Positions 7,208 through 42,060 of a stretch of 64,000 nucleotides of DNA are shown here, one piece after another. The stretch is from Patescibacteria group bacterium. GTDB taxonomy: Bacteria > Patescibacteriota > Patescibacteriia > UBA9934. The notes beneath the pieces are model-generated. The model saw nothing but the letters and a program-made list of their open reading frames with translations, had not been told where the DNA came from and did not search any database. The position numbers were made by a program, and so were the translations under genes. Location of the stretch: contig JAGORL010000001.1 of the NCBI GenBank assembly GCA_018062825.1, forward strand, positions 125,432 through 189,431. Reading direction: 5' to 3'. How positions within the stretch are numbered: position 1 is the first letter of the stretch; each line of letters starts with the position of its first letter.

Positions 7208-7210
7208 GAA

Positions 7211-7241
7211 AAAGTCCCGCTCCTGCGGGATTTTTTCTTTT
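7211..7241 (+). terminator. rho-independent terminator after rpsU
   Basis: GTCCCGCTCCTGCGGGAT hairpin followed by TTTTTTCTTTTCT. Confidence 0.7.
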
Positions 7242-7260
7242 CTGCTACAGTATTCTCACT

Positions 7261-7704: not shown

Positions 7705-7707
7705 ACT

Positions 7708-8829: not shown

Positions 8830-8856
8830 CACAACTCGTGCACGCCTCTTTTTTTG
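8821..8856 (+). terminator. hairpin + T7 overlapping hflX stop
   Basis: GAGGCGT-agcacaactcgtgc-ACGCCTC followed by TTTTTTT; sits only ~10 nt before the next gene start. Confidence 0.5.
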
Positions 8857-13600: not shown

Positions 13601-16600
13601 TGACCGATCCGGAAAGCTATACCTGGTCCTGGGCAACGGATGAAAGCTACGCGCGTTTTAATAGTGCAGTAGATACATCATGTGTTGGCGGTACCTCATC
13701 ATGTGCCACAGTTGAAGCGCTTGCAGAAGGCGAGGCGCTGGTAACAGCTACCGAGGTATCTGAGTCCGTTGCTGGTATAAACGGTAGTGGTGAGTTGATC
13801 GTTAATTTTACCGATCCATACGTCACGCAAGCCTGGCCAAATTGTACGGAAGCTTGTACGAATGCAGAAATTGGAGCTCGTTTTAATACACCGATGAATC
13901 AGGTGTCCATTGAGGCTGCAGGCGCGGTGCGCCTTTATGCTTGTGCAAATGAACTGTGTACATCACTCACGCCAATTATTGGTGCAACAGCTAACTGTCT
14001 ATCTGATGACGCAGGAAACTGTATCGGTTTCGCCCTGGCTCCATTATCACTTTCACCAAGTGATTTCTACCGTGTCGTCATCTCTGAGAGCGTTGAGAGC
14101 ATGAGTGGCGTGCCGCTCATTCGTCCAAATTATGGAACAGACTACTCATGGACCTTCCGCGTACGAGAAGACGCAACGGTGTGTGCTATAGACCGCATCA
14201 CGGTTGAGCCTGCTGATGTTGTTGTAAATACCATTGGTGACACCCGTAATTACACTGGTACCGCCTACGGCGCTGCTGACAGTTGCTCAGTCTCTGGTCA
14301 ACGCTTGGCAGGATATGCCTACAATTGGGGCTGGACTGATCCAATTGAAGATGAAAATAACGATAATAACGCCGCAACTCGTGTAGCAAATTGGTATAAC
14401 AACGCTTCGGTTGATAGTGCTCCGGGAGATGTTGTACTTGGCTGTACCTCATCATGTGTGAGCGCTGGTAGTGCTCCGTATAGCGCAATTTGTGGTGATG
14501 GCTACCTTGATGTTGCAAATGGTGAGGAATGTGAGGATGGCAACGTTGCTTCGGGTGATGGTTGCTCATCGAGCTGTCTGCGTGAAGGTCGTGATACGTT
14601 CGGTGTTTGTGGTAACGAAGTTGTTGACCGAACTCCAGCTGGCGCTGGTGAGGATTGTGATGACGGTGCGCGTGTAAGTGGTGATGGTTGTTCGGCGGAT
14701 TGTTTGAGTGAAGGATCATCAGCCATCGGTGCTACGTGCGGCAATAACGACATCGCACGAAATGTAACAACCCTAGCAGGAGAGGAATGTGATGACGGTA
14801 ACGGTACAAACAACGATGGCTGTTCAGCGCAGTGTCTTAATGAGGGTTCGCCGACCTTAGCTTCGGTTGGTGGTGCAGTTTGTGGTGATGGCTCTGTTGA
14901 TAGCCCTGCGGAGAGCTGTGATGATGGAAATACCGTGAACGGCGATGGTTGCTCAGATTCCTGTCTTTTTGAAGGATCATCGTTAGCGTATAGCGTGGGT
15001 TCGGTATGTGGTGATGGTGTGATTGGTATTGGAGAAGAGTGCGAGGACGGCAATAGTAAGTCCGGTGACGGTTGTTCAAAGAAATGTACGCTCGAGGGAT
15101 CATCCTCTTCCTATGCTGCGCCTTCATTCTGCGGCGATGGCATTATCGGCGTTGGTGAAGTGAACGCTTGCGAGGTCGGCATGAATGGTGATGGTCGCAC
15201 GGATCCAGAGCAGATCGCTATCATTCCAGATGAAGCAGTATTTGAGGTAGATCCAGCAACAGATAAGGCGATTGCAACAATTGAAGTCTCTGAGGATTCA
15301 TCTGGATTGTCTGCAACAACTTCGTTAACGCTCACTTGTTCAGCTACATCAGACAACGACTGTCCAGATCCGTCTGTTTATGGCGTTGGCACGGGTAATT
15401 GCTGTATGGCGCGCCCAGAGGTAACGCTTTTCCCATCCGGTTCGAACATGTGCCGCAATACCGCCATCTACCTCGTTTCAAGCGAGGAGCTTGATTTGAA
15501 CACCTTCATGCAGTCAACAACCGGCGGAGCGGTTACCGTTACGACGCCACGCATGTACGCCAAGCTCGATCTTGTCGCAACAGGAGGTGTTTGTCCTACC
15601 TCACACACCACGCTCGCTCAGAACCACACCAAGAATATCTTTGTTCGCGCTTGGTGGTTTGTGCGCGACATCTTCTTTAAGAATGCTCAGGCAGATAGCG
15701 GTGACTGTGTGGTGCCAATTGTTGGTTACGAACAAACGCCAATGGGAGACGGTACCTTTAAGATCGCCATGAAATACGGCGCACTGCTTGAGCCAAATGT
15801 CGGTTACACAATTGTTGTTGAGGGGGATAATGTCGTTAGCGACGCGGTTGTTGATGGCGTACGTTCACGCTACGGAGTCGGTATCAATGGCACGCAGGAG
15901 ATCGTATTTAAAACAGGTCCAGACGCCTGCGCTCTTGATGCTGTTCAGGTTATTGATACCGAGGATGAAACGCCATATACCTTTACCTTCCTTGATGAAG
16001 AACATGAATACTCGGCAGCGGCGTATGCACTTCGTGGAGGAGTGACCGCTGAAATTCAATCGATTCCTGGCGTATACGCTTGGTCATGGAGTTCATGGCT
16101 TTCCGATGCTGAAGACCTCTTTAGCGCCACTCAAGGTTCTGGTGATGGTGACACGGCAACAATCATGACCGAGGGTCAAAATGGTGAGGCAACGATCGTG
16201 GCAATCGCAGAAGTAACTGATGACGAACTTGGTATTGGTGCAGGTGAGGTGAGCGGTACCGCACCAGCATACGCACTTTTGTGTGAAAACCCTTGGCCAA
16301 ATCCATCGGTCGCCTATCCGTTCACAGATACATCCGCTGGTATTCCAGTTGGCGCGGTTAACGCTGGGGGCTGGATGCGCTTTGCGCTTTCATATTGTCG
16401 TGATGCCGGTAACGCAGGCACAGCTGATGACCTTGGCGCACTCACGGCGGTAGTTGCACAAAATCCAGAAAGTGAGGGCGTGCTGAAGGAGTACCTCTTC
16501 CCAGTTGACGATGGCTCGGGCGATGCTATCGGTATTCGTGTAGTTAGTAACGTGAACTACCATGGCGCTCTTGCGTGGTATGAGGCTCAAGGTTTCGCCG

Positions 16601-19600
16601 GTAGCCCAAGCGAGATCGTCGTTGACGGCTTCCGTGCTGTTCGTGACGGTCGAACCGTCTATGTTATCGCACCAAATCTTCCAGGAGCGATCACCCCGTC
16701 AGCGCCAACAACCGGTTATGTGAATACATACGTATTGTCATACAACCAAGGCGCTAGCGATAGCACGGAAATGATCTTTGATCAGATTCTTGAAAACTTC
16801 ATGTTCGGTATCAATATCAGTGACGTTGGACTCTGTGTTGATAGCGGGGGAGACTTCGTGGTTGAGGATGACGGCACGGGTATGTCATGTTCAAGCGATC
16901 TTGAGTGTGGCGGCGTTGGCGGAGTCTGTGCTTCAGATAAGGCAAAGATTCGTCGTGATACGCAGCGTTTGACGGATATGAGTGACATTGCTGCACTTGT
17001 TAATGATTACGGCATTGAAAACGGTGCCTGTTCCGGTAGTCAGGCGCTGTGTTCTGCGGATAGTCAGTGTCCAGCAACAGAGACCTGCGATCCAATCGTT
17101 CCAACGTTGCCGTCGGGAACTTATATTGCCGGTCTTGCTACAAGTAGCTGGCCATCATGGGATTCCTTGCTCGGCGGCGCCCTTGGTGCAAATGCTCTTC
17201 CTGCCGATCCTTTGAACATGTATCAGTCATGTGGCGTTGGCACTGGCATGGCTGCCACATTTGATGCGCAAACCTGTGTTGATGAAGTACAGGGTAAGTA
17301 TGTGTGTCCGGTCGGTTCAAGCGTGTACCACTATCGCGCTGTCGGAAATCGCGACGCTGTACTTTACGCTGATCTTGAAGACGATTCCGTTGAATGGGCA
17401 GCTGATATTGATACAAGCGCTGCGGATACCGTAACAATTCAGATCGGAAACAGCTCATCAACCGCTGAAGGCTTTGGATCAACGCTTGTTTGTAACGATG
17501 CAGCAGTGGGTGACGCTTGGGGCTTCTCAGCTGTTTGTGGCGACGGCATCCTTGGCGCAACTGAGGTGTGTGAAGTTGGTGATGTCGGCGGATCTTCTAC
17601 GGCCTGCGATGCTGATGGTAACGGCACAATTGATGGCGTGCAGTCGCAGATCTGTAACAGCACGTGTAGCGGCTTTGTGAATAATCCAGCCGCCGCCTGT
17701 ATCGCACCAAGTTGCGGCGACGGCATTGTTGATGGCGGTGAAGAGTGTGATGACGGTTCATCAAATGGTCAGTACGGATTCTGTGGTTCTGACTGTTCTT
17801 ATGACACAGCATTCTATTGTGGCGATGGCTTACTTGCTGGTGGTGAGGTCTGTGACTGTGGCGCAGCGCCGCTCATGTCACCACTTGCTGATTCTCGAGC
17901 ATTCTCATCTGGTGCGGGTACGTGCTCGGGCTTAAACGGTGTTTATAACGCAAGCGCTACCGCAAGCTGCGCGTGGAATTGTGCTGGTCCTGCCGGTTTC
18001 TGTGGTGATAACACCGTACAAAGCGGTGAGCAGTGTGATGGTGAGGCGCAAACCTGGGCAGGTGAGTTGTGTACGTCAAATGCTGGCGATCGCAAGGGAT
18101 TGCCATGTACTGAAGACGCCTATTGTAAAGCCGGCGTTGGCGCTGCAGCCTCTGCGGTATGTGGTGGAACCGCTCCCGCACGTCAGGCGTGTCAGGTTGG
18201 TTACACACGTGTTCGTGAATGTGATAACGGTCCGGGTGGTAGCTGTACCTATGATGCCGGTTGGGTAGCTACAGCGTGTACAGAGATCGGATCTTGTGGT
18301 GATGGCGTTGTTGATCCAGATGAAATGTGTGATGACGGTAATACCGATAGTACTGATGGTTGTACCGCAACCTGTCAGGCAAATGTGTGTGGCGACGGCT
18401 TTGTTTACTCAGGAGAGGAAGAGTGTGATGAGGGCGCAGGAAACGGCGCAGCCTGTGATTCTGCCTACGGATCAACATGTACTTCCTGTACTACATCTTG
18501 TAGGTACACCGTTTCTTCTGGTGAGTTCTGTGGTGACGGTGTCAGAAACGGTAATGAATTCTGTGATGCGAGCGCTATTCCATACCGTTGGTTTGATACT
18601 ACGGTCAGCGGTTTGGGCTTTGTTACCGATATGACCCTAGGTGACACCTGTTACACCCTCGGCAGCACGAAAGTTGAAGGTGGAAAGACCTACACCTGCC
18701 GAAGCGTTGGTATCTGTAACGGCGGATCAAGCAATGGTCAGTACTGCACTGCATCTTCTATTCTGGGAACATTCGGTACCGATGTCGCTGACTGTGGCAG
18801 CGAGATCTTCTTGATAGATGGTGAGTCAAAAATAGGTAATGGTGAGTGTGTAAAACCAACCTGTTCCGGCACGTGTGGCAGCGCTTGCCCGTTCTCGTAC
18901 GCTAGCGCTTCATTACTCATGACGCCAAATCAACCAGGTGCGCCAGCTAGCTCCACCGTCTCGCTCTACTCGTTTAGCGACGACTCAACAGCGACCCTGC
19001 CAAACGCCGCTTCAATCACCATTCCTTCCTGTAACGCCGCCACCGGCCTCACGGCTACACTTGATACCTCGGGTATTGATCTGCCTGATACGTACGTTGT
19101 CTTCATTACTGACAGATCGGGATCGATGGCTACATCAGCTTTGTCTGGTGAGGGTATGAATGTTGCGAAGGATGTCGTCCAAGATGGTATCGAAACCTTA
19201 TTTGATGAGCTCGGCGAAGAGATGTTCATCTCACTTGTTGATTACAGCTCAACTGCCTCATCATTCCCAACTTCTGGTTTCTATGGACCTAATGATGAGA
19301 GTCTCTTACTTGCAGAAGTGGAGACATATGTGGCGAGTGGGTCAACGGAAACAGATGATGCGATCAATGCAGCGAAGACACGGCTAGATTCTGTCTTTGA
19401 TAATGGCAATATTCGTCGAGTAGCAATCTTGCTTTCAGACGGTGTGCCAAATTCTACTTCAGCAACAGATACGGCAGCTGAAGCCTTCAAAGATGCCGGC
19501 TACGAGCTCTACACGATCGCTCTCACAAACACCAGCAGTTTGATTGATAACATGAATGGCTGGTCATCAAATAATGAAAATTGGGACTCAGATGATGGTG

Positions 19601-19917
19601 ATGAGCCAAACGTCTACAATCCAGTTACGGGCATTGACTATGCCTATGATGGCGATACTTCGGGAGAGCTAGAAGATATCTACGATCAAATTATTGCTTC
19701 TATCGTTGGTATGGCGATTACGGTGGTAAGTGTGGACGGCGACGATACCGCACTTGATAGCGCTACAGTTACCGCTGGTTCAAATATCGCTTTGCCATGG
19801 CCTTCAAACTTTGAGTGCGATGGCATTGGGGAACAGACTGTGCCAATTCAGATCACCTTCGGTGGCCTTGGTCGGGTAGTGCTCAAGGATGTAAACGTCA
19901 ATTATTGCGCTCCGTAA
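10603..19917 (+). CDS. giant (about 3100 aa) secreted multidomain surface protein: T4SS-pilin-like N-term, IPT/TIG-like repeats, Cys-rich CGDG..EECDDGN..GDGCS repeats, C-terminal vWA/MIDAS domain (probable start GTG 10651)
   Basis: single uninterrupted ORF; N-terminus paralogous to the preceding gene (GTG-AAA start, signal peptide ending VHA/Q, FVWMTSGGSEEKVSRAKKIL); x4 I.SISP..G..G..VTI.G..FG; DRSGSM...ETDD...LLSDG vWA motifs near 19090-19720. Confidence 0.7.
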   Translation: MVRLQQLLVIFSNHRLVKRLLSSLLIALSLGFAGSLAWPSFVPEVHAQATAALDGLEETNESIGLGDQPLEIIIGNIIRVALGFLGIIAVCIILYGGFVWMTSGGSEEKVSRAKKILINGVIGLGLVMTSLAIATFVMNAISGATGSSANGGSTGGGNGGIGLGGGSSSTFEVTAISPQGELAIRNVVAQITFSKSVDEESVAGRIAVTNVVTGEEVPGTLSVRNSRVSFVPSTPCPEPNGDRFCFDANTQYRVSVESGVESTGGITLTCTVASCSGDFVTGELVDVASPDALVTLPDNNASVSVDAFIDTQVQATDDAGLSVVEFQVADVPFDAMPTSGTSALVSSVWDTTSLELGARYRLTGVVFDQAGNSDDDTATVTVRGEWCFNGVLDTDQGETGIDCGGDSGSANYCGSCAGSSCEVNADCGSGASCVTGVCTIVPEITSISPDNAAPGSFVTISGDGFGQAAGSVTFGFGLAGELTAPLAACSENWSPRQIIVEVPQGGVDGAILVAAASGLTDATNDENGISLNDFDVNDVNRPGICAVTPDAGVATSAVVLTGAGFGASQGESEVYFNESIEAGSYVSWAESGANITVPPLAAGEYPVTVVVDGVTSNAVAFDVVTEVDINPVITSVTPGSGGIGQYITLQGADFGTSIGTVFLDSVESGRRAIASIDFPDACADDIWSETEVTVIIPDGYSDGGFDSLVPGAYELTLQSSRGDLSNTVAFNVTSAQPTPGICAIDPSQGAAGDVVTIIGDNFGSTAGTVTFSAGLSAVSGDWEDGEISVTVPAGTQTGSVTVATEAGESNGVTFTVGASATGAAAPVTASYAWMFSTGEIPQTPQVIVTCSDTQVSGVPNATFTQEVCINAVVYVEFTADMNPATLDDALTVARCTAGGDNPCDTTEVISGSYSVNDHAVRFTPVDLLAQSSTYEVRVSTAAQSVDAVALDEDVSWEFTTRSDATLCNIERVVVSPVTKTLTVINDTAPYQALPVTGCVVTDPESYTWSWATDESYARFNSAVDTSCVGGTSSCATVEALAEGEALVTATEVSESVAGINGSGELIVNFTDPYVTQAWPNCTEACTNAEIGARFNTPMNQVSIEAAGAVRLYACANELCTSLTPIIGATANCLSDDAGNCIGFALAPLSLSPSDFYRVVISESVESMSGVPLIRPNYGTDYSWTFRVREDATVCAIDRITVEPADVVVNTIGDTRNYTGTAYGAADSCSVSGQRLAGYAYNWGWTDPIEDENNDNNAATRVANWYNNASVDSAPGDVVLGCTSSCVSAGSAPYSAICGDGYLDVANGEECEDGNVASGDGCSSSCLREGRDTFGVCGNEVVDRTPAGAGEDCDDGARVSGDGCSADCLSEGSSAIGATCGNNDIARNVTTLAGEECDDGNGTNNDGCSAQCLNEGSPTLASVGGAVCGDGSVDSPAESCDDGNTVNGDGCSDSCLFEGSSLAYSVGSVCGDGVIGIGEECEDGNSKSGDGCSKKCTLEGSSSSYAAPSFCGDGIIGVGEVNACEVGMNGDGRTDPEQIAIIPDEAVFEVDPATDKAIATIEVSEDSSGLSATTSLTLTCSATSDNDCPDPSVYGVGTGNCCMARPEVTLFPSGSNMCRNTAIYLVSSEELDLNTFMQSTTGGAVTVTTPRMYAKLDLVATGGVCPTSHTTLAQNHTKNIFVRAWWFVRDIFFKNAQADSGDCVVPIVGYEQTPMGDGTFKIAMKYGALLEPNVGYTIVVEGDNVVSDAVVDGVRSRYGVGINGTQEIVFKTGPDACALDAVQVIDTEDETPYTFTFLDEEHEYSAAAYALRGGVTAEIQSIPGVYAWSWSSWLSDAEDLFSATQGSGDGDTATIMTEGQNGEATIVAIAEVTDDELGIGAGEVSGTAPAYALLCENPWPNPSVAYPFTDTSAGIPVGAVNAGGWMRFALSYCRDAGNAGTADDLGALTAVVAQNPESEGVLKEYLFPVDDGSGDAIGIRVVSNVNYHGALAWYEAQGFAGSPSEIVVDGFRAVRDGRTVYVIAPNLPGAITPSAPTTGYVNTYVLSYNQGASDSTEMIFDQILENFMFGINISDVGLCVDSGGDFVVEDDGTGMSCSSDLECGGVGGVCASDKAKIRRDTQRLTDMSDIAALVNDYGIENGACSGSQALCSADSQCPATETCDPIVPTLPSGTYIAGLATSSWPSWDSLLGGALGANALPADPLNMYQSCGVGTGMAATFDAQTCVDEVQGKYVCPVGSSVYHYRAVGNRDAVLYADLEDDSVEWAADIDTSAADTVTIQIGNSSSTAEGFGSTLVCNDAAVGDAWGFSAVCGDGILGATEVCEVGDVGGSSTACDADGNGTIDGVQSQICNSTCSGFVNNPAAACIAPSCGDGIVDGGEECDDGSSNGQYGFCGSDCSYDTAFYCGDGLLAGGEVCDCGAAPLMSPLADSRAFSSGAGTCSGLNGVYNASATASCAWNCAGPAGFCGDNTVQSGEQCDGEAQTWAGELCTSNAGDRKGLPCTEDAYCKAGVGAAASAVCGGTAPARQACQVGYTRVRECDNGPGGSCTYDAGWVATACTEIGSCGDGVVDPDEMCDDGNTDSTDGCTATCQANVCGDGFVYSGEEECDEGAGNGAACDSAYGSTCTSCTTSCRYTVSSGEFCGDGVRNGNEFCDASAIPYRWFDTTVSGLGFVTDMTLGDTCYTLGSTKVEGGKTYTCRSVGICNGGSSNGQYCTASSILGTFGTDVADCGSEIFLIDGESKIGNGECVKPTCSGTCGSACPFSYASASLLMTPNQPGAPASSTVSLYSFSDDSTATLPNAASITIPSCNAATGLTATLDTSGIDLPDTYVVFITDRSGSMATSALSGEGMNVAKDVVQDGIETLFDELGEEMFISLVDYSSTASSFPTSGFYGPNDESLLLAEVETYVASGSTETDDAINAAKTRLDSVFDNGNIRRVAILLSDGVPNSTSATDTAAEAFKDAGYELYTIALTNTSSLIDNMNGWSSNNENWDSDDGDEPNVYNPVTGIDYAYDGDTSGELEDIYDQIIASIVGMAITVVSVDGDDTALDSATVTAGSNIALPWPSNFECDGIGEQTVPIQITFGGLGRVVLKDVNVNYCAP
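14491..15200 (+). repeat. tandem ~35-aa cysteine-rich repeats inside giant ORF (CGDG.{5,8}EECDDGN.{3,5}GDGCS..C..EG, about 7 copies); a second, looser block at ~17520-18560
   Basis: periodic repeat visible in the translation and as recurring tgtggtgatggc...gatgacggtaa...ggtgatggttgctc DNA. Confidence 0.8.
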
Positions 19918-19921
19918 TCTT

Positions 19922-20746
19922 ATGGTGGACTTCAACGATCAAGAATTCTTCGACCTCGAGCCGGCGTCACAAGCGTCGGCTCCATCCTGGCGCAAGCCAA
20001 AGATGCTCGCTGCTATTGGTGGAGCGATCGTTGGAGTCGTGCTGCTTGGAGGAATTGGTGTCTACGCCTGGAGCTTGCTTAGTTCAGGTGGCAATCAATT
20101 GCCACAAGGCACTGAGCGTACCGCTGAAGAGTTAGCGGCGCAGATGATGGAAAGCTGCGCAGACGATGACGCATCGTGTGTGAATCAGGCAAACGCTAAC
20201 GCCGCTAGAGAAGTGGGAGATATTACCGCCTGCGCAGAGGTTACCGGCGTTGCCTATGATGAATGTCTGTCAGTTATCGCTTTTGACCAAGGTGACGCTA
20301 CGTTATGTGAGCGAGTAAGTAATGATCGCCGCACGGCTTGTGCGGATAACGCTTGGATCAAGGCGGCGAGTTCTCAGAAAAAGTACGCCCTGTGTGCAAA
20401 TATCACCGATAATGATCGCCGTACCGCCTGTGAAGAAAATGTTGGCGTACAGGCAGCTTCGGCTAACAATTGCGCTGGGTTCGGTGCTCCAGAATCATAT
20501 TGTTCACAAAAGTTAGCGGTTGAGGCGGTGCTTATTGCGGGGGATCCCGCTGGCTGTCTCTCGCTCTCAGTTGAGGGGCGCATTGAATGCCAGGAGCTCT
20601 TCCCGGTACGAGACGATGATAGCGATGGGCTCACAAAAGAACAGGAGTTTGAGCTCGGAACATCCGATCAAATGGCAGATACGGATGGAGACGGGTACAA
20701 TGATGGGGAGGAAGTAGCAGGCGGGTATAATCCGCTTGCCCCATAA
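19922..20746 (+). CDS. single-pass membrane protein with Cys-repeat ectodomain and C-terminal DxDxDG calcium-binding (TSP3-like) repeats
   Basis: N-terminal cytoplasmic segment, TM helix (LAAIGGAIVGVVLLGGIGVYAW), repeated C..DNDRRTAC modules, C-terminal DDDSDGLTKEQEFELGTSDQMADTDGDGYNDGEEVAGGYNPL. Confidence 0.5.
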   Translation: MVDFNDQEFFDLEPASQASAPSWRKPKMLAAIGGAIVGVVLLGGIGVYAWSLLSSGGNQLPQGTERTAEELAAQMMESCADDDASCVNQANANAAREVGDITACAEVTGVAYDECLSVIAFDQGDATLCERVSNDRRTACADNAWIKAASSQKKYALCANITDNDRRTACEENVGVQAASANNCAGFGAPESYCSQKLAVEAVLIAGDPAGCLSLSVEGRIECQELFPVRDDDSDGLTKEQEFELGTSDQMADTDGDGYNDGEEVAGGYNPLAP

Positions 20747-20756
20747 GCGAATATCT

Positions 20757-21482
20757 ATGTTTGACGACAAGCAACCCGAAGACATCTTTGAAGGATCAGA
20801 CAAAGCTCCAGCGCCAATGAATCTTCCCGTTGAAGATCAACGCATTGCGCCAGCGCCTCGCCTGACGCCACCTACCACTCCATCAGCTAGTGCGAGCGCG
20901 ATGGGCTCTGCCCCAATGCAAGAAGAAGGGCACCCCATTGTCTCCGCAAAGGTTGTCTTGGTTGCTATCATCATTCTTGGTGTTATTGGCGCTACGATTG
21001 CGATCTCGTATAGCTTCATGTCGCAGCCTCAAGTATCGATGCCGCTCGCTGATCAGTCAGTAGAGGAGGATGAGAATGAAAATGACACTGATACTGAGGT
21101 AGTGCTAGATGATGAAGAAGGCAAAGGAGATGATGAGAACGAGCTAGATGGGCTTCCACAGACCGATCCAGCGGTTATTGTTATTGATAGTGACGGCGAT
21201 GGTCTCTCAAATGATGAAGAGATGGAGCTTGGAACGTCAATCAATAATCCTGATTCAGATAATGACGGCCTAGGAGATCGTGAGGAGATCCAGGTTTACA
21301 AAACAAATCCACTCAACCCAGATACTGACGGAGATACCTATTCAGACGGCGTTGAGGTGCAAGGCGGCTACAATCCAAACGGTGAAGGCAAATTGTTGCA
21401 AGTGCCAACGCCTCAAGAAGACTCATCTACAAGTATGGAATCCGATGTCATGGTGACTTCGGATGAAGAAGAAACGCTCTAG
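20757..21482 (+). CDS. paralogous single-pass membrane protein with acidic tail and DxDxDG repeats
   Basis: starts MFDDKQPED; TM helix VVLVAIIILGVIGATIAISY; DSDGDGLSNDEEMELGTSINNPDSDNDGLGDREEIQVYKTNPLNPDTDGDTYSDGVEVQGGYNPNG. Confidence 0.5.
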   Translation: MFDDKQPEDIFEGSDKAPAPMNLPVEDQRIAPAPRLTPPTTPSASASAMGSAPMQEEGHPIVSAKVVLVAIIILGVIGATIAISYSFMSQPQVSMPLADQSVEEDENENDTDTEVVLDDEEGKGDDENELDGLPQTDPAVIVIDSDGDGLSNDEEMELGTSINNPDSDNDGLGDREEIQVYKTNPLNPDTDGDTYSDGVEVQGGYNPNGEGKLLQVPTPQEDSSTSMESDVMVTSDEEETL

Positions 21483-21485
21483 TGT

Positions 21486-22436
21486 ATGTTCGACGATGCA
21501 AATAAAACACCAGGAACTTCAGCGGCTCCTGTGCCGGCTACTGGTCAACTGCCAAGGCAAGGCGCTCACGCTGAGGTCGTCATCCATGTGATGCCGAAAG
21601 ATTTTGCATCCAAAGAAGCTGTCATGAAGGACGCACCAAAGCCGGCTCCGGTTGTGACGCCTCCGCCAAAGCCTGCTCCGGCACCTATCCCGGCTCCAGC
21701 GCCAAGTTTCAAGCCAAAGCCGCGCCGTTCAGCGCTGCCGATAATTATCATTTTATTACTACTCGCAGTTATCGGTGGGGGAGTTGCTTATTACGCGCTC
21801 GTGATCATGCCAGCGCAGAATGTTGTTATTACTCCTCAGCCGGAACCAGAGCCAGAACCGGAACCAGAGCCAGAGCCGGAACCTGAGCCGGTTGAGCCGG
21901 GTCCGGGTGTTGATACCGATAGCGATGGCCTGACAAACGTTGAGGAATTGCTTTATGGCACGGATTTCCGTGATCCAGATACTGATGATGATACGTTCCT
22001 TGATGGTAATGAAGTCTTCCATCGTTACGATCCAAACGGCTTATCACCAAGCACGCTCCTTGATACTGGCGCAGTTCGTGTATACAGCTCGCTTGAGCCT
22101 GTCATGAACCTACATTACCCAACCTCCTGGACCCCGGCGGTCGGAGACGGGGAAGTGACATTCCGCTCACCAAGCACCGCCTCGGTATCGGTCGCCTGGC
22201 TCACAGCGGCTGAGTTTGCACAGTTCATTGAAGTATCAGATATCGATCTTGATGAATACACAGCAGGCACCACAAAGTCAGGCTTTGCTACCTCGGTGAG
22301 CGCAAACTCGCGTATTGTTTTCCTTGAAGCGGGCGACGTCACCTATGTGTTTACGTACAGTCTGAGTGAGGCGCAAAGCATCGAGTTCCTTCAGACGTTC
22401 CAAATGATGGTCAATAGCTTTGCCCTGACCCCATGA
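21486..22436 (+). CDS. paralogous single-pass membrane protein with PE-repeat linker and DxDxDG repeats
   Basis: starts MFDDANKTPG; Pro-rich cytoplasmic part, TM helix IIIILLLLAVIGGGVAYYALVI, (PE)9 linker, DTDSDGLTNVEELLYGTDFRDPDTDDDTFLDGNEVFHRYDPNG. Confidence 0.5.
   Translation: MFDDANKTPGTSAAPVPATGQLPRQGAHAEVVIHVMPKDFASKEAVMKDAPKPAPVVTPPPKPAPAPIPAPAPSFKPKPRRSALPIIIILLLLAVIGGGVAYYALVIMPAQNVVITPQPEPEPEPEPEPEPEPEPVEPGPGVDTDSDGLTNVEELLYGTDFRDPDTDDDTFLDGNEVFHRYDPNGLSPSTLLDTGAVRVYSSLEPVMNLHYPTSWTPAVGDGEVTFRSPSTASVSVAWLTAAEFAQFIEVSDIDLDEYTAGTTKSGFATSVSANSRIVFLEAGDVTYVFTYSLSEAQSIEFLQTFQMMVNSFALTP
21841..21891 (+). repeat. (CCNGAR)n microsatellite encoding PEPEPEPEPEPEPEPEP
   Basis: ccggaaccagagccagaaccggaaccagagccagagccggaacctgagccg. 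Confidence 0.9.
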
Positions 22437-22864
22437 TCACGTTTGATGTTGACCAATCACTAGTTCCGCGTGAGCACCGCTTGAAAAAGACGGTGCTCGC
22501 TCGCATTGGTGAAGAGTTAAGCAAAAGAGTGCCGTCACACCCTTCAGGCATCATGACGCTCGCCTTTGTGACCGATGAAGAAATTCGCCGACTTAACCGC
22601 ATGTATCGTGAAAAAGATAAGGTAACAGATGTGCTCTCTTTTGGAGCGGGGGAGAACGGCCAGCAGGGACTTCTCGGAGATGTTATTATTGCTTTTGGAC
22701 AAGCAAAGCGCCAGGCGCAAGCCGCTGATGGCGATCTCGCCCTTGAAATCGTGGATCTCGTCGTACACGGCGGACTCCATGTTCTTGGGTATGACCACGA
22801 AAAACCCGAGGACGCTCAAGAGATGTTTCCTTTACAAGATGCGATAGTTGCCGCTGTTTTATGA
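22433..22864 (+). CDS. ybeY: endoribonuclease YbeY (rRNA maturation factor)
   Basis: HGGLHVLGYDHE zinc-binding motif H...H.....H; 143 aa. Confidence 0.85.
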   Translation: MITFDVDQSLVPREHRLKKTVLARIGEELSKRVPSHPSGIMTLAFVTDEEIRRLNRMYREKDKVTDVLSFGAGENGQQGLLGDVIIAFGQAKRQAQAADGDLALEIVDLVVHGGLHVLGYDHEKPEDAQEMFPLQDAIVAAVL

Positions 22865-23262
22865 AGTCCATTAAGCAATTTCTTCGCAGTACTCGTCATG
22901 CGCTCCACGGAATCGCTACGCTTGCTAAAGCTGAGCGAAATTTTCGATTGCAGCTATTTATTGGCACAATCGTGCTTGTAGTGCAGGCTGTGCTGCCACT
23001 AGAGATTTGGGAGCGAATTATTGTTATACTTTTAATCGCAGGGGTACTAGTGCTCGAGCTTGGTAATAGCGTCATTGAACGTTTCGCGGATGCTGTGCAC
23101 CCGCGCATTCACCCCATTGTTCGTGAGGTAAAAGATATGATGGCAGGGGCGGTTTTAATAGCCGCAGTGACCGCTGCTGTCGTTGGTTTTCTGATTTTTT
23201 GGCCCCATGTGTACAACTTGGCTTGTGCTATACTTGCCCTCTGTACCGCGGTAGATGTATGA
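22861..23262 (+). CDS. dgkA: diacylglycerol kinase family membrane protein
   Basis: 3 TM helices and ELGNSVIERFADAV (DAGK_prokar E..NSAIE motif); classic ybeY-dgkA linkage. Confidence 0.7.
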   Translation: MKSIKQFLRSTRHALHGIATLAKAERNFRLQLFIGTIVLVVQAVLPLEIWERIIVILLIAGVLVLELGNSVIERFADAVHPRIHPIVREVKDMMAGAVLIAAVTAAVVGFLIFWPHVYNLACAILALCTAVDV

Positions 23263-23318
23263 CGATAATAGAAGTTGATGTTTATTCGTCTGAAATGCAG
23301 GCCTAACGCCGCGTTGCT

Positions 23319-24578
23319 ATGGCTGACGAGATCATTACTGGTTTAGATATAGGTTCTTCCATGATTCGGGTAGCGGTCTGCAAGATCGTCCCAGTGGAAG
23401 ATGGAAAGATACAGCTCCATGTCATTGGTGCTGTTTCTTCGCCGTCCCACGGTATGCATAAAGGCGCAGTATCTTCCATGGAAGATGCTGTTTCTGGTAT
23501 TTCAAAAGCCATAGAGCGCGCCGAGCGCATGACAGGCGTTGCTATGAATACCGCTTGGGTAGCGCTTGGCGGGCAGAGTATTGCTGTTCAGGAGAGTCGT
23601 GGCGCTATTGCAGTTGCGCGCCCAGAAGGGGAAATTACTGAGGATGATGTTGAGCGTGCTGTTGAGGCAGCGAAAACCGTTGCCATTCCCTCAAACTATG
23701 AAATCTTGCATACCCTGCCAAAAAGTTTTGCTGTAGATGGTCAGCGTGGCGTAAAGGATCCGGTTGGTATGAGCGGTGTGCGTCTTGAGGTAGATGCCGT
23801 CATTATTGAAGCACTATCATCGCACGTCAAAAATCTTACAAAGAGCGTCTATCGCACGGGCCTTGATATTGATGACGTTGTATACGGGTCATTGGCAACA
23901 GCTGAGGCTGTGCTCACCCAACGCCAGCGAGAATTAGGTTCCTGTGTAGTAAATATGGGTGCCGCCACCACGTCCGTTGCAGTTTTTGAAGAAGGTGATC
24001 TTCTCCATACCGCAGTTTTGCCATTTGGTGGCGATCACATCACGAATGATTTAGCCATCGGTCTTCGCACCTCAATTGAGATCGCTGAGCAAGTAAAATT
24101 AGCATACGGCCACGCAGTACCTGACGCGATCGATCGCAAACAGCAGTTTGCTCTCGCTGATTTCGGTGCCGCTACCGACGAAATCGTGAAACGCCGCTTT
24201 GTGGCAGAGGTTATTGAAGCGCGTCTTGAAGAGATCTTTGAGGCGGTGGACGCGGAACTGCGTAAAGTGGATCGTTCGGGCATGCTGCCGGTTGGTGTGG
24301 TGTTTACCGGTGGCGCCATGAAGCTTGAGGGCGCTCTAGAGGTCGCTAAGCGGGTTTTACGCCTGCCGTGCGCCATGGGAGTCCCATTGGGCATTACAAG
24401 CGTCATTGATGAAGCGCATGATCCAGCTTTTGCAACGGCAATTGGTCTCGCGATTCACGGGAAAGATATTCGGGAAATGTCCGGCAAGCGTCGAGGACTC
24501 GGATTTTCGCTAAAATTCCGCAGTACCACGAAAGTCGCCGATACCCTGAAGAAATGGATGCAGTCGCTTATCCCCTAA
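23319..24578 (+). CDS. ftsA: cell division protein FtsA
   Basis: actin-fold motifs (ITGLDIGSSMIRVAV, GAATTSVAVFEEG, FGGDHITNDLA, FTGGAMKLEGA); upstream of ftsZ. Confidence 0.9.
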   Translation: MADEIITGLDIGSSMIRVAVCKIVPVEDGKIQLHVIGAVSSPSHGMHKGAVSSMEDAVSGISKAIERAERMTGVAMNTAWVALGGQSIAVQESRGAIAVARPEGEITEDDVERAVEAAKTVAIPSNYEILHTLPKSFAVDGQRGVKDPVGMSGVRLEVDAVIIEALSSHVKNLTKSVYRTGLDIDDVVYGSLATAEAVLTQRQRELGSCVVNMGAATTSVAVFEEGDLLHTAVLPFGGDHITNDLAIGLRTSIEIAEQVKLAYGHAVPDAIDRKQQFALADFGAATDEIVKRRFVAEVIEARLEEIFEAVDAELRKVDRSGMLPVGVVFTGGAMKLEGALEVAKRVLRLPCAMGVPLGITSVIDEAHDPAFATAIGLAIHGKDIREMSGKRRGLGFSLKFRSTTKVADTLKKWMQSLIP

Positions 24579-24681
24579 AAGCGTGTTTTTTGCATTGACG
24601 AAGCGCTTTGCGAAGGTTAGGGTTGGCCTACGGAAAGGTGTGTTGAAATAAATGGTGTAACCTTTGCGACTTTTTCTTGCT

Positions 24682-25995
24682 ATGGCAGAAATCAAGCCCG
24701 ATATTGAAACAAGTGCCAAGATCAAAGTTATTGGTGTTGGCGGCGGCGGCGGCGCTGCTGTTAACCGCATGATGAAAGAAAAAGTGCGTGGTGTTGATTT
24801 TATTGCCGTAAATACCGATGCGCAAGCGCTTTATCATAACGCTGCACCGGTCAAAATTGCGATTGGTAAAGCGGTTACCCGTGGCCTTGGTGCTGGTATG
24901 AATCCTGAGATCGGCAAACGTGCCGCTGAGGAAAACGGTAATGATTTAAGAAACGCTCTTGCCGGCGCTGACATGGTCTTTTTGACCGCTGGCTTAGGCG
25001 GCGGAACCGGCTCCGGCGCAATTCCAGAACTTGCTAAGATCGCCAAAGATATTGGCGCCCTTACGGTTGCGGTAGTAACGAAGCCGTTCGCCTTTGAAGG
25101 CGCTCAGCGTCGCCGCATTGCAGAAGATGCGCACACAGATCTTGGTCAGCATGTTGATGCCATCATCACCATTTCAAACGATCGTGTTTTACAAATTGTT
25201 GATAAGAAAGCCTCAGTTGGTGACTCATTCCGTCTGATTGACGACGTCCTTCGCCAGGGTGTTCTTGGTATCGCTGAGGTTATTACAACCCACGGTGATA
25301 TTAACGTCGACTTCGCTGACGTGAAAGCTATCATGCAAAATGCCGGCAGTGCCATCATGGGTATTGGCCGTGCTTCTGGTGAAAATCGTGCTGTTGAAGC
25401 AGCTAAGATGGCAATCTCAAACGGACTACTAGAAATGTCGATGGATGGCGCTAAGGGCGTTCTCTTCACCGTTTCTGGCAACGATGTCGGCATGTATGAA
25501 CTTACGGAGGCCGCCAAGATTATCACCGGTAGTGCGGATGATGATGCTAAAGTGATTTTCGGTCTTATCAAAGATGAAAGCATTGGGGATGAGATCCGCA
25601 TCACTGTTGTTGCGACCGGTTTTGACTCGCGCAATCCTGCTCGTTCCATGGCGCGTCCAGATTCTGTTACAATTACACCAAAACAACCTTGGAAGTCTGA
25701 GGGTTCAGAGTTTAGCGCACCGCGCCGCCCAACTCACACGCCTCCACCATCTGCGTCCGCAGCTCCATCTGGTGAATCACCATTTGCTAAGCGCTCATTT
25801 AGTGCGCTTGATCAAGATGAGCCGATCGTTTCACCGTCCCGAGAAAGAGATCGAGAACGCGAGGAGCGTGAAGTGTCGAGCACGCCTGTTGCTCCGCCAC
25901 CAAAGCCGGTTGTGCAGAACCAGAATGACAAAGATAAAGATGACGACGGTGGCGATTTTGGCATCCCAGCCTTTATCCGTCGTCGCATGATGTAG
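24682..25995 (+). CDS. ftsZ: cell division GTPase FtsZ with long disordered C-terminal tail
   Basis: IKVIGVGGGGGAAVNRM, tubulin signature GGGTGSGAIP, T7 loop NVDFADV. Confidence 0.95.
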   Translation: MAEIKPDIETSAKIKVIGVGGGGGAAVNRMMKEKVRGVDFIAVNTDAQALYHNAAPVKIAIGKAVTRGLGAGMNPEIGKRAAEENGNDLRNALAGADMVFLTAGLGGGTGSGAIPELAKIAKDIGALTVAVVTKPFAFEGAQRRRIAEDAHTDLGQHVDAIITISNDRVLQIVDKKASVGDSFRLIDDVLRQGVLGIAEVITTHGDINVDFADVKAIMQNAGSAIMGIGRASGENRAVEAAKMAISNGLLEMSMDGAKGVLFTVSGNDVGMYELTEAAKIITGSADDDAKVIFGLIKDESIGDEIRITVVATGFDSRNPARSMARPDSVTITPKQPWKSEGSEFSAPRRPTHTPPPSASAAPSGESPFAKRSFSALDQDEPIVSPSRERDREREEREVSSTPVAPPPKPVVQNQNDKDKDDDGGDFGIPAFIRRRMM

Positions 25996-25999
25996 CGCT

Positions 26000-26479
26000 A
26001 TGCGCTGCCCAGTGTGTAATTTTAAGTCCACGCGCGTTATCGATTCGCGCTTGGCTACCGACGGTATGGCCGTGCGCCGCCGCCGTGAATGTGAACGCAC
26101 CCGGTGCGGTTTTCGTTTTTCAACGGTTGAGGAGATTGAGCTCATGGATGTCACTGTCGTAAAGCGCAATGGCCGCAAGGAGCCATACAAGCGTGAAAAG
26201 ATTGAAAACGGACTTCGTAAGGCGTTAGAGAAACGCCCGCATACCGATGCGCAATTTGTAGCGCTCGTGCACACCATGGAGCGAGATATTCAAAAAGTAA
26301 AAGGTGGAGAAATTACAAGCGCCGATATCGGTGAAATCGTCATGCGCCGCCTGAGGGATTTTGATACGGTTGCCTACATTCGCTTTGCATCCGTGTACCG
26401 TCAATTTGAAGATGTAGCCACGTTTGAGCAAGAGTTGCGCAAGCTAGAGGCTCCAAAGGGCAAGGCTAAGGTCGAGTAA
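26000..26479 (+). CDS. nrdR: transcriptional repressor NrdR
   Basis: MRCPVCN....RVIDSR...........RRREC..C..RF zinc ribbon + ATP-cone. Confidence 0.9.
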   Translation: MRCPVCNFKSTRVIDSRLATDGMAVRRRRECERTRCGFRFSTVEEIELMDVTVVKRNGRKEPYKREKIENGLRKALEKRPHTDAQFVALVHTMERDIQKVKGGEITSADIGEIVMRRLRDFDTVAYIRFASVYRQFEDVATFEQELRKLEAPKGKAKVE

Positions 26480-26497
26480 CTGGTATACTGTTGCGGT

Positions 26498-30734: not shown

Positions 30735-30800
30735 ACAATTGCAAAAAGTATAGCATGCAGCGTGAGCGATAAAGTAGTGAAATTTGAACAATATCTAGAT

Positions 30801-32163: not shown

Positions 32164-32240
32164 TGGCGGGACGGACGGGACTCGAACCCGCAACTTCTGC
32201 CGTGACAGGGCAGTGCTCTAACCAATTGAACTACCGTCCC
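32164..32240 (-). tRNA. tRNA-Asp (anticodon GUC), CCA encoded
   Basis: reverse complement GGGACGGTAGTTCAATTGGTTAGAGCACTGCCCTGTCACGGCAGAAGTTGCGGGTTCGAGTCCCGTCCGTCCCGCCA folds as cloverleaf: 7-bp acceptor, D-arm GTTC/GAGC, anticodon stem CTGCC/GGCAG loop CTGTCAC, T-loop TTCGAGT. Confidence 0.85.
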
Positions 32241-33724: not shown

Positions 33725-33825
33725 GCCTGAAAGCCTATCCACGAAACCTCCGGTGAGAAAGGAAAAGGGACCAGAGGTCATTGCTGACTTGGTCCCCACG
33801 TTTGCCGTCAGGTCGAGCCTGGCAG

Positions 33826-42039: not shown

Positions 42040-42060
42040 AAGATATACCCAATAAGTGGA

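What the first reader, a model, noticed from the sequence alone, without database searches (positions are those of the whole stretch)
19922..22436. Three tandem paralogous single-pass membrane proteins with acidic DxDxDG calcium-binding tails immediately downstream of the giant adhesin
Genes at 19922, 20757 and 21486 (the last two both begin MFDD...) each encode a short cytoplasmic head, one TM helix and an extracytoplasmic acidic region. That region ends in repeated D.D.DG..D..E loops, which are thrombospondin-type-3/dockerin/EF-hand-like Ca-binding motifs (DSDGDGLSNDEEMELG, DSDNDGLGDREE, DTDGDTYSDGVEVQGGYNPNG, DTDSDGLTNVEELLYGTDFRDPDTDDDTFLDGNEV). The first paralog adds a Cys-repeat ectodomain (C..DNDRRTAC x3). 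The third adds a (PE)9 spacer encoded by a CCNGAR microsatellite, which could vary in length. Three consecutive paralogs in a streamlined genome, directly 3' of the vWA-terminated giant protein (vWA/MIDAS binds acidic ligands through a metal), suggests a functional unit. A possible model is a membrane-anchored Ca-binding docking or receptor partner for the giant protein, or an S-layer-like anchoring system. This pairing is inference from adjacency and chemistry, not a described system.
Basis: inference. Interest (0 to 1): 0.6.

Follow-up and report, generated by a model that had tools for sequence, protein, structure and literature searches.

The report
Calcium-loop membrane proteins beside giant adhesin
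Three small membrane proteins with calcium-binding loops sit in a fixed position after a 3,104-residue surface protein in a whole lineage of ultra-small (Patescibacteria) bacteria; they probably anchor or organise that surface protein, but this is untested.

Summary
The three genes are real: A 19922-20746, B 20757-21482, C 21486-22436. Each encodes a cytoplasmic head, one TM helix and an acidic ectodomain with bacterial thrombospondin-type-3 (TSP3) calcium loops. Pfam PF18884 scores 27 (A) and 48 bits (B), above the cut-off of 25; C scores 14, below it.

- A carries six conserved Cys pairs in a helical-repeat domain.
- The spacer is (PE)8, not (PE)9.
- Only B and C are true paralogs.

In 54 of 54 informative Uhrbacteria/Magasanikbacteria-type loci, two or three such genes directly follow a Cys-rich ORF of at least 900 aa. 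They are just as constantly followed by ybeY-dgkA-ftsA-ftsZ.

The vWA-docking idea is not supported. Distant giants show no Pfam vWA match in their last 399 residues, yet keep the TSP3 genes. One lineage keeps a B-type gene with only a small pilin-like gene nearby.

Best reading (about 0.4): calcium-stiffened transmembrane partners of the pilin-anchored giant surface protein, a monoderm analogue of Myxococcus TraA/TraB. Conserved cytoplasmic peptide motifs point to an unknown inner partner. I found no description of this cluster. Interest is moderate.

The parts
19922..20746 (+). Gene A: 274-aa bitopic protein with a cytoplasmic head, TM helix, Cys-stapled helical-repeat ectodomain and two TSP3 loops.
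   Evidence: ORF. Single TM at residues 29-47. PF18884 27.3 bits. Ortholog alignment A2.
19922..20005 (+). A cytoplasmic head (residues 1-28) with the conserved acidic-aromatic motif D..(Q/E)(F/Y)(F/Y).L (here DFNDQEFFDLEP).
   Evidence: The motif is conserved in the 26-sequence alignment A2. K/R residues flank the N-side of the TM.
20123..20599 (+). A ectodomain (residues 68-226): all-helical repeat with six Cx6-11C pairs about 27 aa apart.
20612..20743 (+). A TSP3 Ca-loop module (loops at residues 231 and 253), ending GYNPLAP.
   Evidence: Orthologs carry 2 or 3 loops.
20757..21482 (+). Gene B: 241-aa bitopic protein with a disordered cytoplasmic head bearing three short motifs, a TM helix, an acidic spacer and three TSP3 loops.
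   Evidence: ORF. PF18884 48 bits, 3 stretches. TM at residues 66-84 and net charge -42 on the C-side.
20757..20951 (+). B cytoplasmic head (residues 1-65) with motifs MFDD, PEDIFEG and MNLPVE.
   Evidence: MFD[DE], P.NLP. and EPED[IM]F.G recur in B-position proteins of most of the 42 loci inspected, including the most distant.
21186..21377 (+). B TSP3 module (loops at residues 144, 166 and 189).
21486..22436 (+). Gene C: 316-aa bitopic protein with a cytoplasmic head, TM helix, Pro/Glu spacer, a double TSP3 loop and a PsbP/Mog1-like domain. Its stop overlaps the ybeY start.
   Evidence: ORF. 345 homologs found, with the listed best hits aligning over most or all of the length. Alignment A1. 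AF2 model.
21576..21605 (+). C cytoplasmic motif VVIHVMPKDF (family consensus VVIHxMPKEFxG; distant form EPEIxxIPDxFYG).
   Evidence: P37 is invariant and M36 nearly invariant in A1. Distant forms seen. The motif is unique to this ORF in the window.
21838..21891 (+). (PE)8 spacer, coded by an imperfect CCNGAR repeat.
   Evidence: TRF: period 6 x 6.8 copies at 80% match; period 18 x 2.8 copies. (PE)8 at residues 119-134. Spacer sequence and length vary among homologs. An independent contig, L080, ends inside it.
21912..22076 (+). C TSP3 double loop plus flank (residues 143-197), the most conserved stretch of the protein.
   Evidence: 32 of the 44 invariant columns of A1 lie in residues 143-197. 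PF18884 is below threshold here (14.2 bits), but 24 of 34 family members hit.
22074..22433 (+). C C-terminal PsbP/Mog1-like alpha/beta domain (residues 197-316).
10603..19917 (+). Giant 3104-aa surface protein: signal peptide, VirB2-like TM hairpin (T4SS_pilin, residues 69-137), TIG/Big_5 Ig-like domains, Cys-rich DUF4215/TIGR02232 repeats and a C-terminal VWA (residues 2832-2977, DRSGS MIDAS motif).
   Evidence: Pfam and NCBIfam. MIDAS motif. Syntenic giants in relatives.
8838..10640 (+). Second pilin-like surface protein (600 aa; T4SS_pilin + Big_5), directly upstream of the giant.
   Evidence: Pfam. Its N-terminus is homologous to the 165-aa pilin-like gene near the B-type gene in L078 (E 1e-10).
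22433..25995 (+). Constant downstream neighbours, possibly in the same transcript: ybeY 22433-22864, dgkA 22861-23262, ftsA 23319-24578, ftsZ 24664-25995.
   Evidence: Pfam. Conserved order in relatives. The scan of 7000-26500 found no excess of terminator-like sites over shuffled sequence.

Best explanation
A, B and C are three co-transcribed type-II (N-in, C-out) bitopic envelope proteins of a Uhrbacteria-like member of the Patescibacteria (CPR).

Shared architecture. Each has a short or disordered cytoplasmic head with a family-specific conserved peptide motif. This is followed by one TM helix, a flexible acidic or Pro/Glu spacer, and a module of bacterial thrombospondin-type-3 loops that should bind Ca2+ outside the cell.

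Extra domains. A adds a disulfide-stapled helical-repeat (TPR-like) domain. C adds a PsbP/Mog1-like domain. Both folds are typical protein-binding scaffolds.

Proposed role. Together they most likely form the Ca2+-stiffened, membrane-proximal partner or anchor set for the giant Cys-rich surface protein encoded just upstream, and for its 600-aa sibling. Both of those proteins are held in the membrane by a VirB2-like hairpin. The arrangement would be a monoderm analogue of the way the TSP3-containing TraB partners the Cys-rich-repeat receptor TraA in Myxococcus. The cytoplasmic motifs would tie the assembly to an unidentified cytoplasmic partner.

Shown here: gene structure, topology signals, TSP3 family match, the two predicted folds, family-wide conservation and synteny.
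Inferred, not shown: Ca2+ binding, physical contact with the giant protein, and any anchoring or organising role.
For: - TSP3 family: PF18884 above threshold for A and B. The strict loop motif is found only in these ORFs of the window.
- Extracytoplasmic location of the C-sides: 12 conserved paired Cys in A, K/R residues on the N-side of the helices in A and C, and acidic Ca loops.
- Constraint beyond metal binding: the TSP3 region of C holds 32 of the 44 invariant columns of the family alignment.
- Synteny: 54 of 54 informative loci have a giant ORF directly upstream. 43 loci have three TSP3 bitopic genes and 11 have two. 102 of the 107 small ORFs between the giant and C combine a TM segment with TSP3 loops.
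- Tight gene spacing of 3-10 nt.
- When the block is broken (L065, Komeilibacteria), the TSP3 genes stay with the large upstream ORFs and ybeY-dgkA, and ftsA/ftsZ are gone.
- In L078, a B-type gene still lies two genes from a pilin-like gene homologous to the 600-aa protein's N-terminus.
- In two of two other CPR contigs examined, unrelated N-terminal-TM TSP3 proteins open operons holding PrgI/VirB3, TraC-like and VirB4 genes.
- Precedent: TraA (Cys-rich repeat stalk) and TraB (TSP3-containing) are encoded in one operon and form 1:1 complexes (PMC12045341). The giant here carries 8 TIGR02232 repeats, E 7e-48.
Against: - No direct evidence of contact; no multimer prediction or co-evolution analysis could be run.
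- Synteny with ybeY-dgkA-ftsA-ftsZ is as constant as synteny with the giant: 65 of 68 and 67 of 68 loci. The whole array from 7261 to 28405 is co-directional with small gaps, so adjacency is weak evidence within one clade.
- L078 shows a B-type gene can exist without any giant.
- The TSP3 segments are modelled with low confidence, pLDDT 45-60.
- C's TSP3 match is below Pfam's threshold.
- Unlike TraB, these proteins show no detectable peptidoglycan-binding domain, and I found no way they could attach to the wall.
- The conserved cytoplasmic motifs are not explained by a purely extracellular anchoring role.
Confidence: 0.4

Rival explanations
1. Division- or envelope-growth-associated bitopic proteins. 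The conserved cytoplasmic peptides (MFDD, NLPxEP, EPEDIF, VVIHxMPKxF) would bind FtsA, FtsZ or another cytoplasmic divisome part. The ectodomains would act in the wall at the septum, filling roles that FtsN, FtsQ or ZipA-type proteins play elsewhere. Adjacency to the giant gene would be incidental.
For: - ftsA lies within five ORFs downstream in 67 of 68 loci.
- In L078, a more distant lineage (FtsA 45% identical), the order B-type gene, ybeY, dgkA, ftsA, ftsZ is kept although no giant is present.
- The N-in bitopic architecture with short conserved cytoplasmic peptides resembles known divisome linkers (my own knowledge).
- The motifs are conserved across the deepest divergences sampled.
Against: - ybeY and dgkA always intervene, and they form their own widespread unit.
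- In L065 the TSP3 genes stay with the large upstream ORFs while ftsA/ftsZ are absent from the next 9 kb.
- There is no sequence similarity to any NCBIfam divisome family.
Confidence: 0.17
2. General Ca2+-dependent envelope scaffold. The three proteins would be wall-zone spacers or S-layer/wall organisers of these monoderm cells. They would use Ca2+-rigidified TSP3 modules on flexible stalks and have no specific relationship to the giant protein.
For: - TSP3 repeats serve as linkers in envelope proteins such as OmpA-family proteins and TraB (PMC12045341). OmpA-TSP3 proteins also appear among the hits.
- The spacers are variable in sequence and length, as expected for stalks.
- The family is large: 773 clusters at 50% identity score E<=1e-30 against the C profile, although some of these are long multi-TSP3 proteins.
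- The genomic position is housekeeping-like.
Against: - The perfect positional linkage to the giant gene in 54 of 54 loci would then be coincidence or only clade inheritance.
- The near-invariant surface of C's TSP3 module and the dedicated binding folds of A and C suggest specific partners.
Confidence: 0.2
3. One reading: the acidic DxDxDG tails are ligands of the C-terminal vWA/MIDAS domain of the giant protein and dock to it through a shared metal ion.
For: - The window's vWA has an intact DxSxS motif (DRSGS).
- vWA-terminated giants and the 12-Cys A family co-occur in the same loci (L001-L042, L051, L058) and are both undetected in the distant loci.
Against: - Pfam finds no VWA in the last 399 residues of nine distant giants, nor in the 1142-aa L065 ORF, while B- and C-type genes persist.
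- DxSxS is kept in only about 22 of 33 aligned relatives.
- The Asp side chains of a TSP3 loop are expected to be occupied by their own Ca2+ (inference).
- The co-occurrence of vWA with A is one clade-level event.
Confidence: 0.08
4. Assembly factors of a type-IV-secretion-derived machine. The TSP3 bitopic proteins would help insert, polymerise or export VirB2-like-domain proteins rather than anchor the finished product.
For: - Both upstream proteins carry T4SS_pilin domains.
- In L077 and L079, an N-terminal-TM TSP3 protein is the first gene of operons with PrgI/VirB3, TraC-like and VirB4 genes.
- CPR genomes broadly keep T4SS genes and VirB2-like arrays (bioRxiv 10.1101/2025.01.22.634366).
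Against: - The L077/L079 proteins share only the TSP3 loops with A, B and C.
- No T4SS ATPase or channel gene was found among the window ORFs scanned.
- No pilin-like Pfam hit was found in the L077/L079 operon partners.
Confidence: 0.1

Closest known systems
Myxococcus xanthus TraA/TraB outer-membrane-exchange pair
   Same: A surface receptor whose stalk is made of Cys-rich repeats (TIGR02232; the giant here scores E 7e-48 with 8 stretches) is encoded in one operon with a partner containing TSP3 repeats predicted to bind Ca2+. TraA and TraB form 1:1 complexes, and TraB anchors TraA (PMC12045341).
   Different: - TraB is an outer-membrane beta-barrel with an OmpA peptidoglycan-binding domain. 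A, B and C are single-pass cytoplasmic-membrane proteins with no OmpA or barrel domain.
- There are three partners here, not one.
- The adhesin is anchored by a VirB2-like hairpin, not a MYXO-CTERM tag.
- The host is a monoderm CPR bacterium.
- No interaction has been shown here.
Bacterial TSP3-repeat proteins (Pfam PF18884), e.g. OmpA-family proteins with TSP3 linkers and Myxococcus CglD and MtsD
   Same: DxDxDGxxDxxE loops in tandem, located in an envelope protein. A and B pass the Pfam threshold. There are weak NCBIfam alignments to the TSP3 parts of CglD and MtsD.
   Different: - There is no intra-repeat disulfide. B and C have no Cys at all in the ectodomain, whereas the solved OmpA TSP3 structure is described as disulfide-dependent (title cited in PMC12045341).
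- The surrounding architecture is different.
- Scores are far below the CglD and MtsD family cut-offs.
PsbP/Mog1-like fold proteins (PsbP, Mog1, mycobacterial LpqN/Apa/MTC28, T6SS immunity proteins Tsi3/TplEi, BT_1490)
   Different: Sequence identity is only 9-18%. Pfam PsbP is below threshold and a PDB sequence-profile search finds nothing. This is a shared fold, not membership of any of those functional families.
VirB2-like pilin arrays and T4SS loci of Patescibacteria
   Same: T4SS_pilin (PF18895) domains are widespread in CPR, often in arrays, and are thought to serve host contact (bioRxiv 10.1101/2025.01.22.634366). The window has two such proteins in tandem.
   Different: That work does not mention thrombospondin, calcium, ftsA or ftsZ. 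Here the pilin-like domain anchors proteins of 600 and 3104 aa, and no virB4 is nearby in the window.

Membership tests
Bacterial TSP3 repeat (Pfam PF18884) | Profile match at or above the gathering score (25 bits) | tested here: met
   A scores 27.3 bits and B 48.0 bits with 3 stretches. C is the exception: 14.2 bits on its own, with 24 of 34 family members matching at E<=0.1 and a best E of 1.3e-4.
Bacterial TSP3 repeat (Pfam PF18884) | Tandem acidic loops of the form DxDxDGxxDxxE | tested here: met
   Loops at A 231 and 253; B 144, 166 and 189; C 143 and 163-176. The loop Asp, Gly and Glu residues are invariant in the A and C family alignments.
Bacterial TSP3 repeat (Pfam PF18884) | Ca2+ binding by the loops | not testable with these tools
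   Needs biochemistry. The AF2 models of these segments have low confidence without metal.
OmpA-type TSP3 (disulfide-dependent subtype) | Intra-repeat disulfide bond | tested here: not met
   There is no Cys in or between the loops. The ectodomains of B and C contain no Cys at all.
TraA/TraB-like adhesin-partner system | Adhesin with TIGR02232 Cys-rich repeats encoded next to a TSP3-containing partner | tested here: met
   The giant scores E 7.1e-48 against TIGR02232 with 8 stretches. The three TSP3 genes start 4 nt after its stop.
TraA/TraB-like adhesin-partner system | Partner has an outer-membrane beta-barrel and an OmpA peptidoglycan-binding domain; the adhesin has a MYXO-CTERM tag | tested here: not met
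   Pfam and NCBIfam find no OmpA, barrel or MYXO-CTERM match in A, B, C or the giant.
TraA/TraB-like adhesin-partner system | Physical complex of adhesin and partner | not testable with these tools
   No multimer prediction was available. Only window sequences and proteins returned by the search for homologous proteins could be submitted for structure prediction.
PsbP/Mog1-like fold | Alpha/beta sandwich that superposes on PsbP/Mog1-type structures | tested here: met
PsbP family (Pfam PF01789 / PF18933) | Sequence-profile match above threshold | tested here: not met
   PsbP_2 E 0.12, 12.8 bits against a cut-off of 27. PsbP hits appear in 8 of 34 members, best E 1.1e-3.
Dockerin / EF-hand | Pfam dockerin or EF-hand profile match | tested here: not met
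   Neither family is listed at E<=1 for A, B or C. The A-family profile gives only weak loop-level hits to calmodulins, E 8e-4 to 0.04.
FtsQ/DivIB-type divisome protein | POTRA plus beta domain after the TM helix | tested here: not met
   No VWA in 10 of 10 distant loci checked (the last 399 residues of nine giants, and the whole 1142-aa L065 ORF). DxSxS is kept in about 22 of 33 relatives.

The most novel reading that the evidence does not exclude
The pilin-like 600-aa protein, the giant protein and A, B and C together form a previously undescribed envelope apparatus fixed across this group of Patescibacteria (records named Uhrbacteria, Magasanikbacteria and Komeilibacteria). It would consist of a VirB2-like-anchored giant surface fibre held by a three-subunit, Ca2+-dependent transmembrane base. 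The conserved cytoplasmic peptides of that base would couple the surface structure to a cytoplasmic partner, possibly the FtsA/FtsZ machinery encoded just downstream. Host or surface attachment would then be positioned or regulated from inside the cell.
Probability: 0.2. Interest if true: 0.7.

Novelty: new variant of a known kind. Interest (0 to 1): 0.45.

Why it matters
Patescibacteria are abundant, mostly uncultured, and thought to live attached to other cells. How their envelope holds the very large surface proteins they encode is unknown.

This work defines a conserved five-gene module: two pilin-anchored surface proteins plus three Ca-loop bitopic proteins. Two of the three carry distinct binding folds (A and C), and all three carry conserved cytoplasmic peptides. 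The module sits at one fixed chromosomal position in every sampled relative.

That gives concrete, clonable targets for testing Ca2+-dependent anchoring: small ectodomains and short peptides. It also points to a possible inside-outside link next to ftsA/ftsZ, and provides a monoderm counterpart to the TraA/TraB principle.

If it turns out to be only a set of generic wall spacers, the result is an ordinary annotation improvement.

Tried and rejected
- Full-length paralogy of A, B and C: rejected for A. Pairwise BLASTP aligns only the TSP3 module.
- Dockerin or EF-hand assignment: no Pfam support.
- Sequence relatives with solved structures: none for C. For A, only Ca-loop-level hits.
- Word-based homolog search for A, as a single sequence and as a profile: flooded by TSP3 proteins, yielding only 8 full-length family members.
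A was modelled from 8 sequences only.
- Literature: no paper was found on this cluster, or on TSP3 proteins in Patescibacteria. The CPR T4SS preprint does not mention it.
- Pilin-like domains in the L077/L079 T4SS operons that begin with a TSP3 protein: none found.
- T4SS genes in the rest of the window: none among the ORFs scanned.
- Promoter and terminator scan: no more sites than in shuffled sequence, so it is uninformative about operon limits.
- PE-repeat length variation between strains: it could not be tested. The only independent contigs are 100% identical, and one stops inside the repeat.
- L070-L076 (archaeal, Verrucomicrobiota, Actinomycetota): TSP3-only matches, or no significant match at all (L075), not relatives of the family.

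Full report
**1. The observation**

The window is a roughly 50% GC genome piece from a Patescibacteria (CPR) bacterium. Protein A is identical to NCBI KBC55_00790, 'Patescibacteria group bacterium'.

On the + strand the gene order is:
- enolase, GAPDH, PGK, S26 signal peptidase, HisRS, YqeY, HflX;
- a 600-aa T4SS_pilin + Big_5 protein (8838-10640);
- a 3104-aa protein (10603-19917) with T4SS_pilin, TIG, Big_5, DUF4215/TIGR02232 Cys-rich repeats and a C-terminal VWA domain;
- the three ORFs of the finding;
- YbeY, DgkA, FtsA, FtsZ, NrdR and pyruvate kinase.

The three ORFs are A 19922-20746 (274 aa), B 20757-21482 (241 aa) and C 21486-22436 (316 aa). They are separated by 4, 10 and 3 nt, and C overlaps the ybeY start.

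Each has one and only one hydrophobic helix and a strongly acidic C-side. A and C have K/R residues on the N-side of the helix.

The strict Ca-loop motif D.D.D[GN]..[DN]..E occurs four times in the window, all in these ORFs. Pfam TSP3_bac is above its threshold for A (27.3 bits) and B (48 bits), and below it for C (14.2 bits). Of 34 C-family members, 24 hit at E<=0.1. So the core observation stands.

**2. Corrections**

- The spacer in C is (PE)8, encoded by an imperfect repeat. In homologs this spacer varies freely in sequence (PE, PT, TT) and in length, as expected for a stalk.
- Within this genome the three proteins align only over the TSP3 module.
- In some deeper lineages (L044, L045, L048, L055), the B-position protein has the B-type N-terminus and also carries the C-type domain. 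In L044 it is 34% identical to its neighbour over 179 aa, E 4e-28. B and C are therefore true paralogs, and the window's B is the short form. A is a separate family.

**3. Conserved cytoplasmic peptides**

All three heads carry short conserved motifs:
- A: D..(Q/E)(F/Y)(F/Y).L.
- B: MFD[DE], P.NLP. and EPED[IM]F.G, kept in most of the 42 loci inspected, including the most distant.
- C: MF[DE]D and VVIHxMPKEFxG, or EPEIxxIPDxFYG in distant forms.

None of these motifs recurs in any other credible ORF of the window. Their conservation in otherwise disordered, fast-evolving heads implies a cytoplasmic binding partner. Its identity is unknown.

**4. Relatives and synteny**

C belongs to a large family. 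345 word-based hits were found, and the best hits listed are mostly full-length at 37-55% identity. The family profile matches 773 clusters at 50% identity with E<=1e-30, and most of the top 150 are proteins of 300-350 aa covered end to end.

A scan of species-representative genomes gave 68 distinct loci. All are from Patescibacteria, in records named Uhrbacteria, Magasanikbacteria or Komeilibacteria, or in unnamed or mislabelled MAGs.

Mapping window proteins and calling ORFs in these loci gave these counts:
- All 54 loci with enough upstream sequence have an ORF of at least 900 aa directly upstream. It is usually cut by the 10-kb flank at more than 2500 aa, is Cys-rich in most, and is homologous to the window's giant in most.
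- 43 loci have three TSP3 bitopic genes and 11 have two.
- 102 of the 107 small ORFs between the giant and C combine a TM segment with TSP3 loops.
- ybeY follows within two ORFs in 65 of 68 loci.
- ftsA follows within five ORFs in 67 of 68 loci.

Three long metagenome contigs show the same order, with giants of 3067-3114 aa. T4SS_pilin hits are on record for two of them.

**5. Which neighbour matters?**

Within this clade the whole block is frozen, so synteny alone cannot decide. The informative cases are few.

- In L065 (Komeilibacteria), large upstream ORFs, then B, C, ybeY and dgkA are kept, but ftsA/ftsZ are not downstream.
- In L078, a more distant lineage with FtsA 45% identical, the same S26-HisRS neighbourhood holds a 165-aa T4SS_pilin gene. 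That gene is homologous to the N-terminus of the window's 600-aa protein (E 1e-10). It is followed by rpsU, then a B-type TSP3 protein (PPNLP head, four loops), then ybeY-dgkA-ftsA-ftsZ. There is no giant.
- Two of two other CPR contigs examined start their PrgI/VirB3, TraC-like and VirB4 operons with an N-terminal-TM TSP3 protein of a different family.

Together these cases suggest the deep association is between TSP3 bitopic proteins and VirB2/T4SS-type envelope proteins. The link to ftsA/ftsZ cannot be dismissed.

**6. The vWA idea**

The window's vWA has an intact DRSGS motif. However, only about 22 of 33 aligned relatives keep DxSxS. Pfam finds no VWA in the last 399 residues of nine distant giants, nor anywhere in the 1142-aa L065 ORF, while the TSP3 genes persist in those loci. 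vWA-acidic tail docking is therefore not the conserved logic.

The 12-Cys A family and the vWA terminus do co-occur, but that is a single clade-level event.

**7. Comparison with known systems**

The best functional analogue I found is Myxococcus TraA/TraB. TraA's stalk is built of Cys-rich repeats. TraB carries TSP3 repeats predicted to bind Ca2+ between a beta-barrel and an OmpA domain. The two are encoded together, form 1:1 complexes, and TraB anchors TraA (PMC12045341).

The giant here carries the same repeat family (TIGR02232, E 7e-48). The differences are that A, B and C lack barrel and OmpA domains, are cytoplasmic-membrane bitopic proteins, number three rather than one, and have cytoplasmic motifs.

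They pass the TSP3_bac membership test (A and B). They fail the tests for dockerin/EF-hand, FtsQ-type, the PsbP sequence family and TraB proper.

I found no paper describing this cluster.

**8. Verdict**

The finding is a real, lineage-wide gene module. The most likely mechanism (about 0.4) is a Ca2+-stiffened set of transmembrane partners for the pilin-anchored giant surface protein, with an unknown cytoplasmic contact.

Rivals are a generic wall scaffold (0.2), a division-linked role (0.17), T4SS-type assembly factors (0.1) and vWA docking (0.08).

Novelty: a new variant of a known kind, namely TSP3 envelope partners of Cys-rich adhesins. Interest is moderate at 0.45. The module is conserved and testable in vitro, but everything about function is inferred and the organisms are uncultured.

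Noticed in passing
window 34001-36000 and 42001-44000: Two high-GC islands (0.66 and 0.63) sit in a window of about 50% GC. Long ORFs on both strands there (33781-35322 +, 33826-35355 -, 42242-43294 +, 43548-44714 +) have no significant Pfam family. They could be foreign DNA or compositionally odd genes.
   Followed up: partly
window 21838-21891; L080 1-2512: An independent assembly contig (Logan SRR11088367) is 100% identical to window 19354-21865 and ends inside the PE-coding repeat of gene C. This may be an assembly break at the repeat, possibly from length heterogeneity.
   Followed up: partly
window about 6990-7200 (+): A small unlisted ORF between HisRS and YqeY looks like ribosomal protein S21 (..GESFEALFRRFSRRFQQSGK..). 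In L078, rpsU lies between the pilin-like gene and the B-type TSP3 gene.
   Followed up: partly
window 8838-10640 (+): A second pilin-like surface protein (600 aa; T4SS_pilin + Big_5) lies directly upstream of the giant. By ORF call its end overlaps the giant's start by 38 nt.
   Followed up: partly
window 28743-30791 (-): A 682-aa protein with C-type lectin and Big_5 domains on the opposite strand is another candidate surface or attachment protein.
   Followed up: no
L077 10001-20784; L079 5509-16474: In two of two other CPR contigs examined, an N-terminal-TM protein with two TSP3 loops and a helical domain of about 200 aa is the first gene of a T4SS-type operon (PrgI/VirB3, TraC-like, VirB4). 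In both it follows uvrD and rsmA. I found no description of this in the CPR T4SS preprint.
   Followed up: partly
L043, L052-L054, L056, L057, L059-L061: In these distant relatives, the first and second TSP3 proteins usually end in a conserved NP(L/R)G.G.C....C Cys pair (L061 was not inspected). Four of the ten distant C-termini scanned show a CarboxypepD_reg-like match, only one of them above Pfam's cut-off, and none shows vWA.
   Followed up: no
L067 1-9516; L069 2-9328: In the two most divergent loci, the giant proteins themselves contain 6-7 DxDxD[GN] loops.
   Followed up: no
window 37850-38261 (-), 32164-32240 (-): A tmRNA (tag ANVFSRAKAALASAFATPSFAFVAA) and a tRNA-Asp.
   Followed up: no
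L004, L008, L010 and many other loci: Many of the related genome records are titled 'uncultured Gammaproteobacteria bacterium', and one 'Candidatus Kapaibacterium'. Their gene content here is that of Uhrbacteria-like Patescibacteria, so the record names appear to be mislabelled.
   Followed up: no
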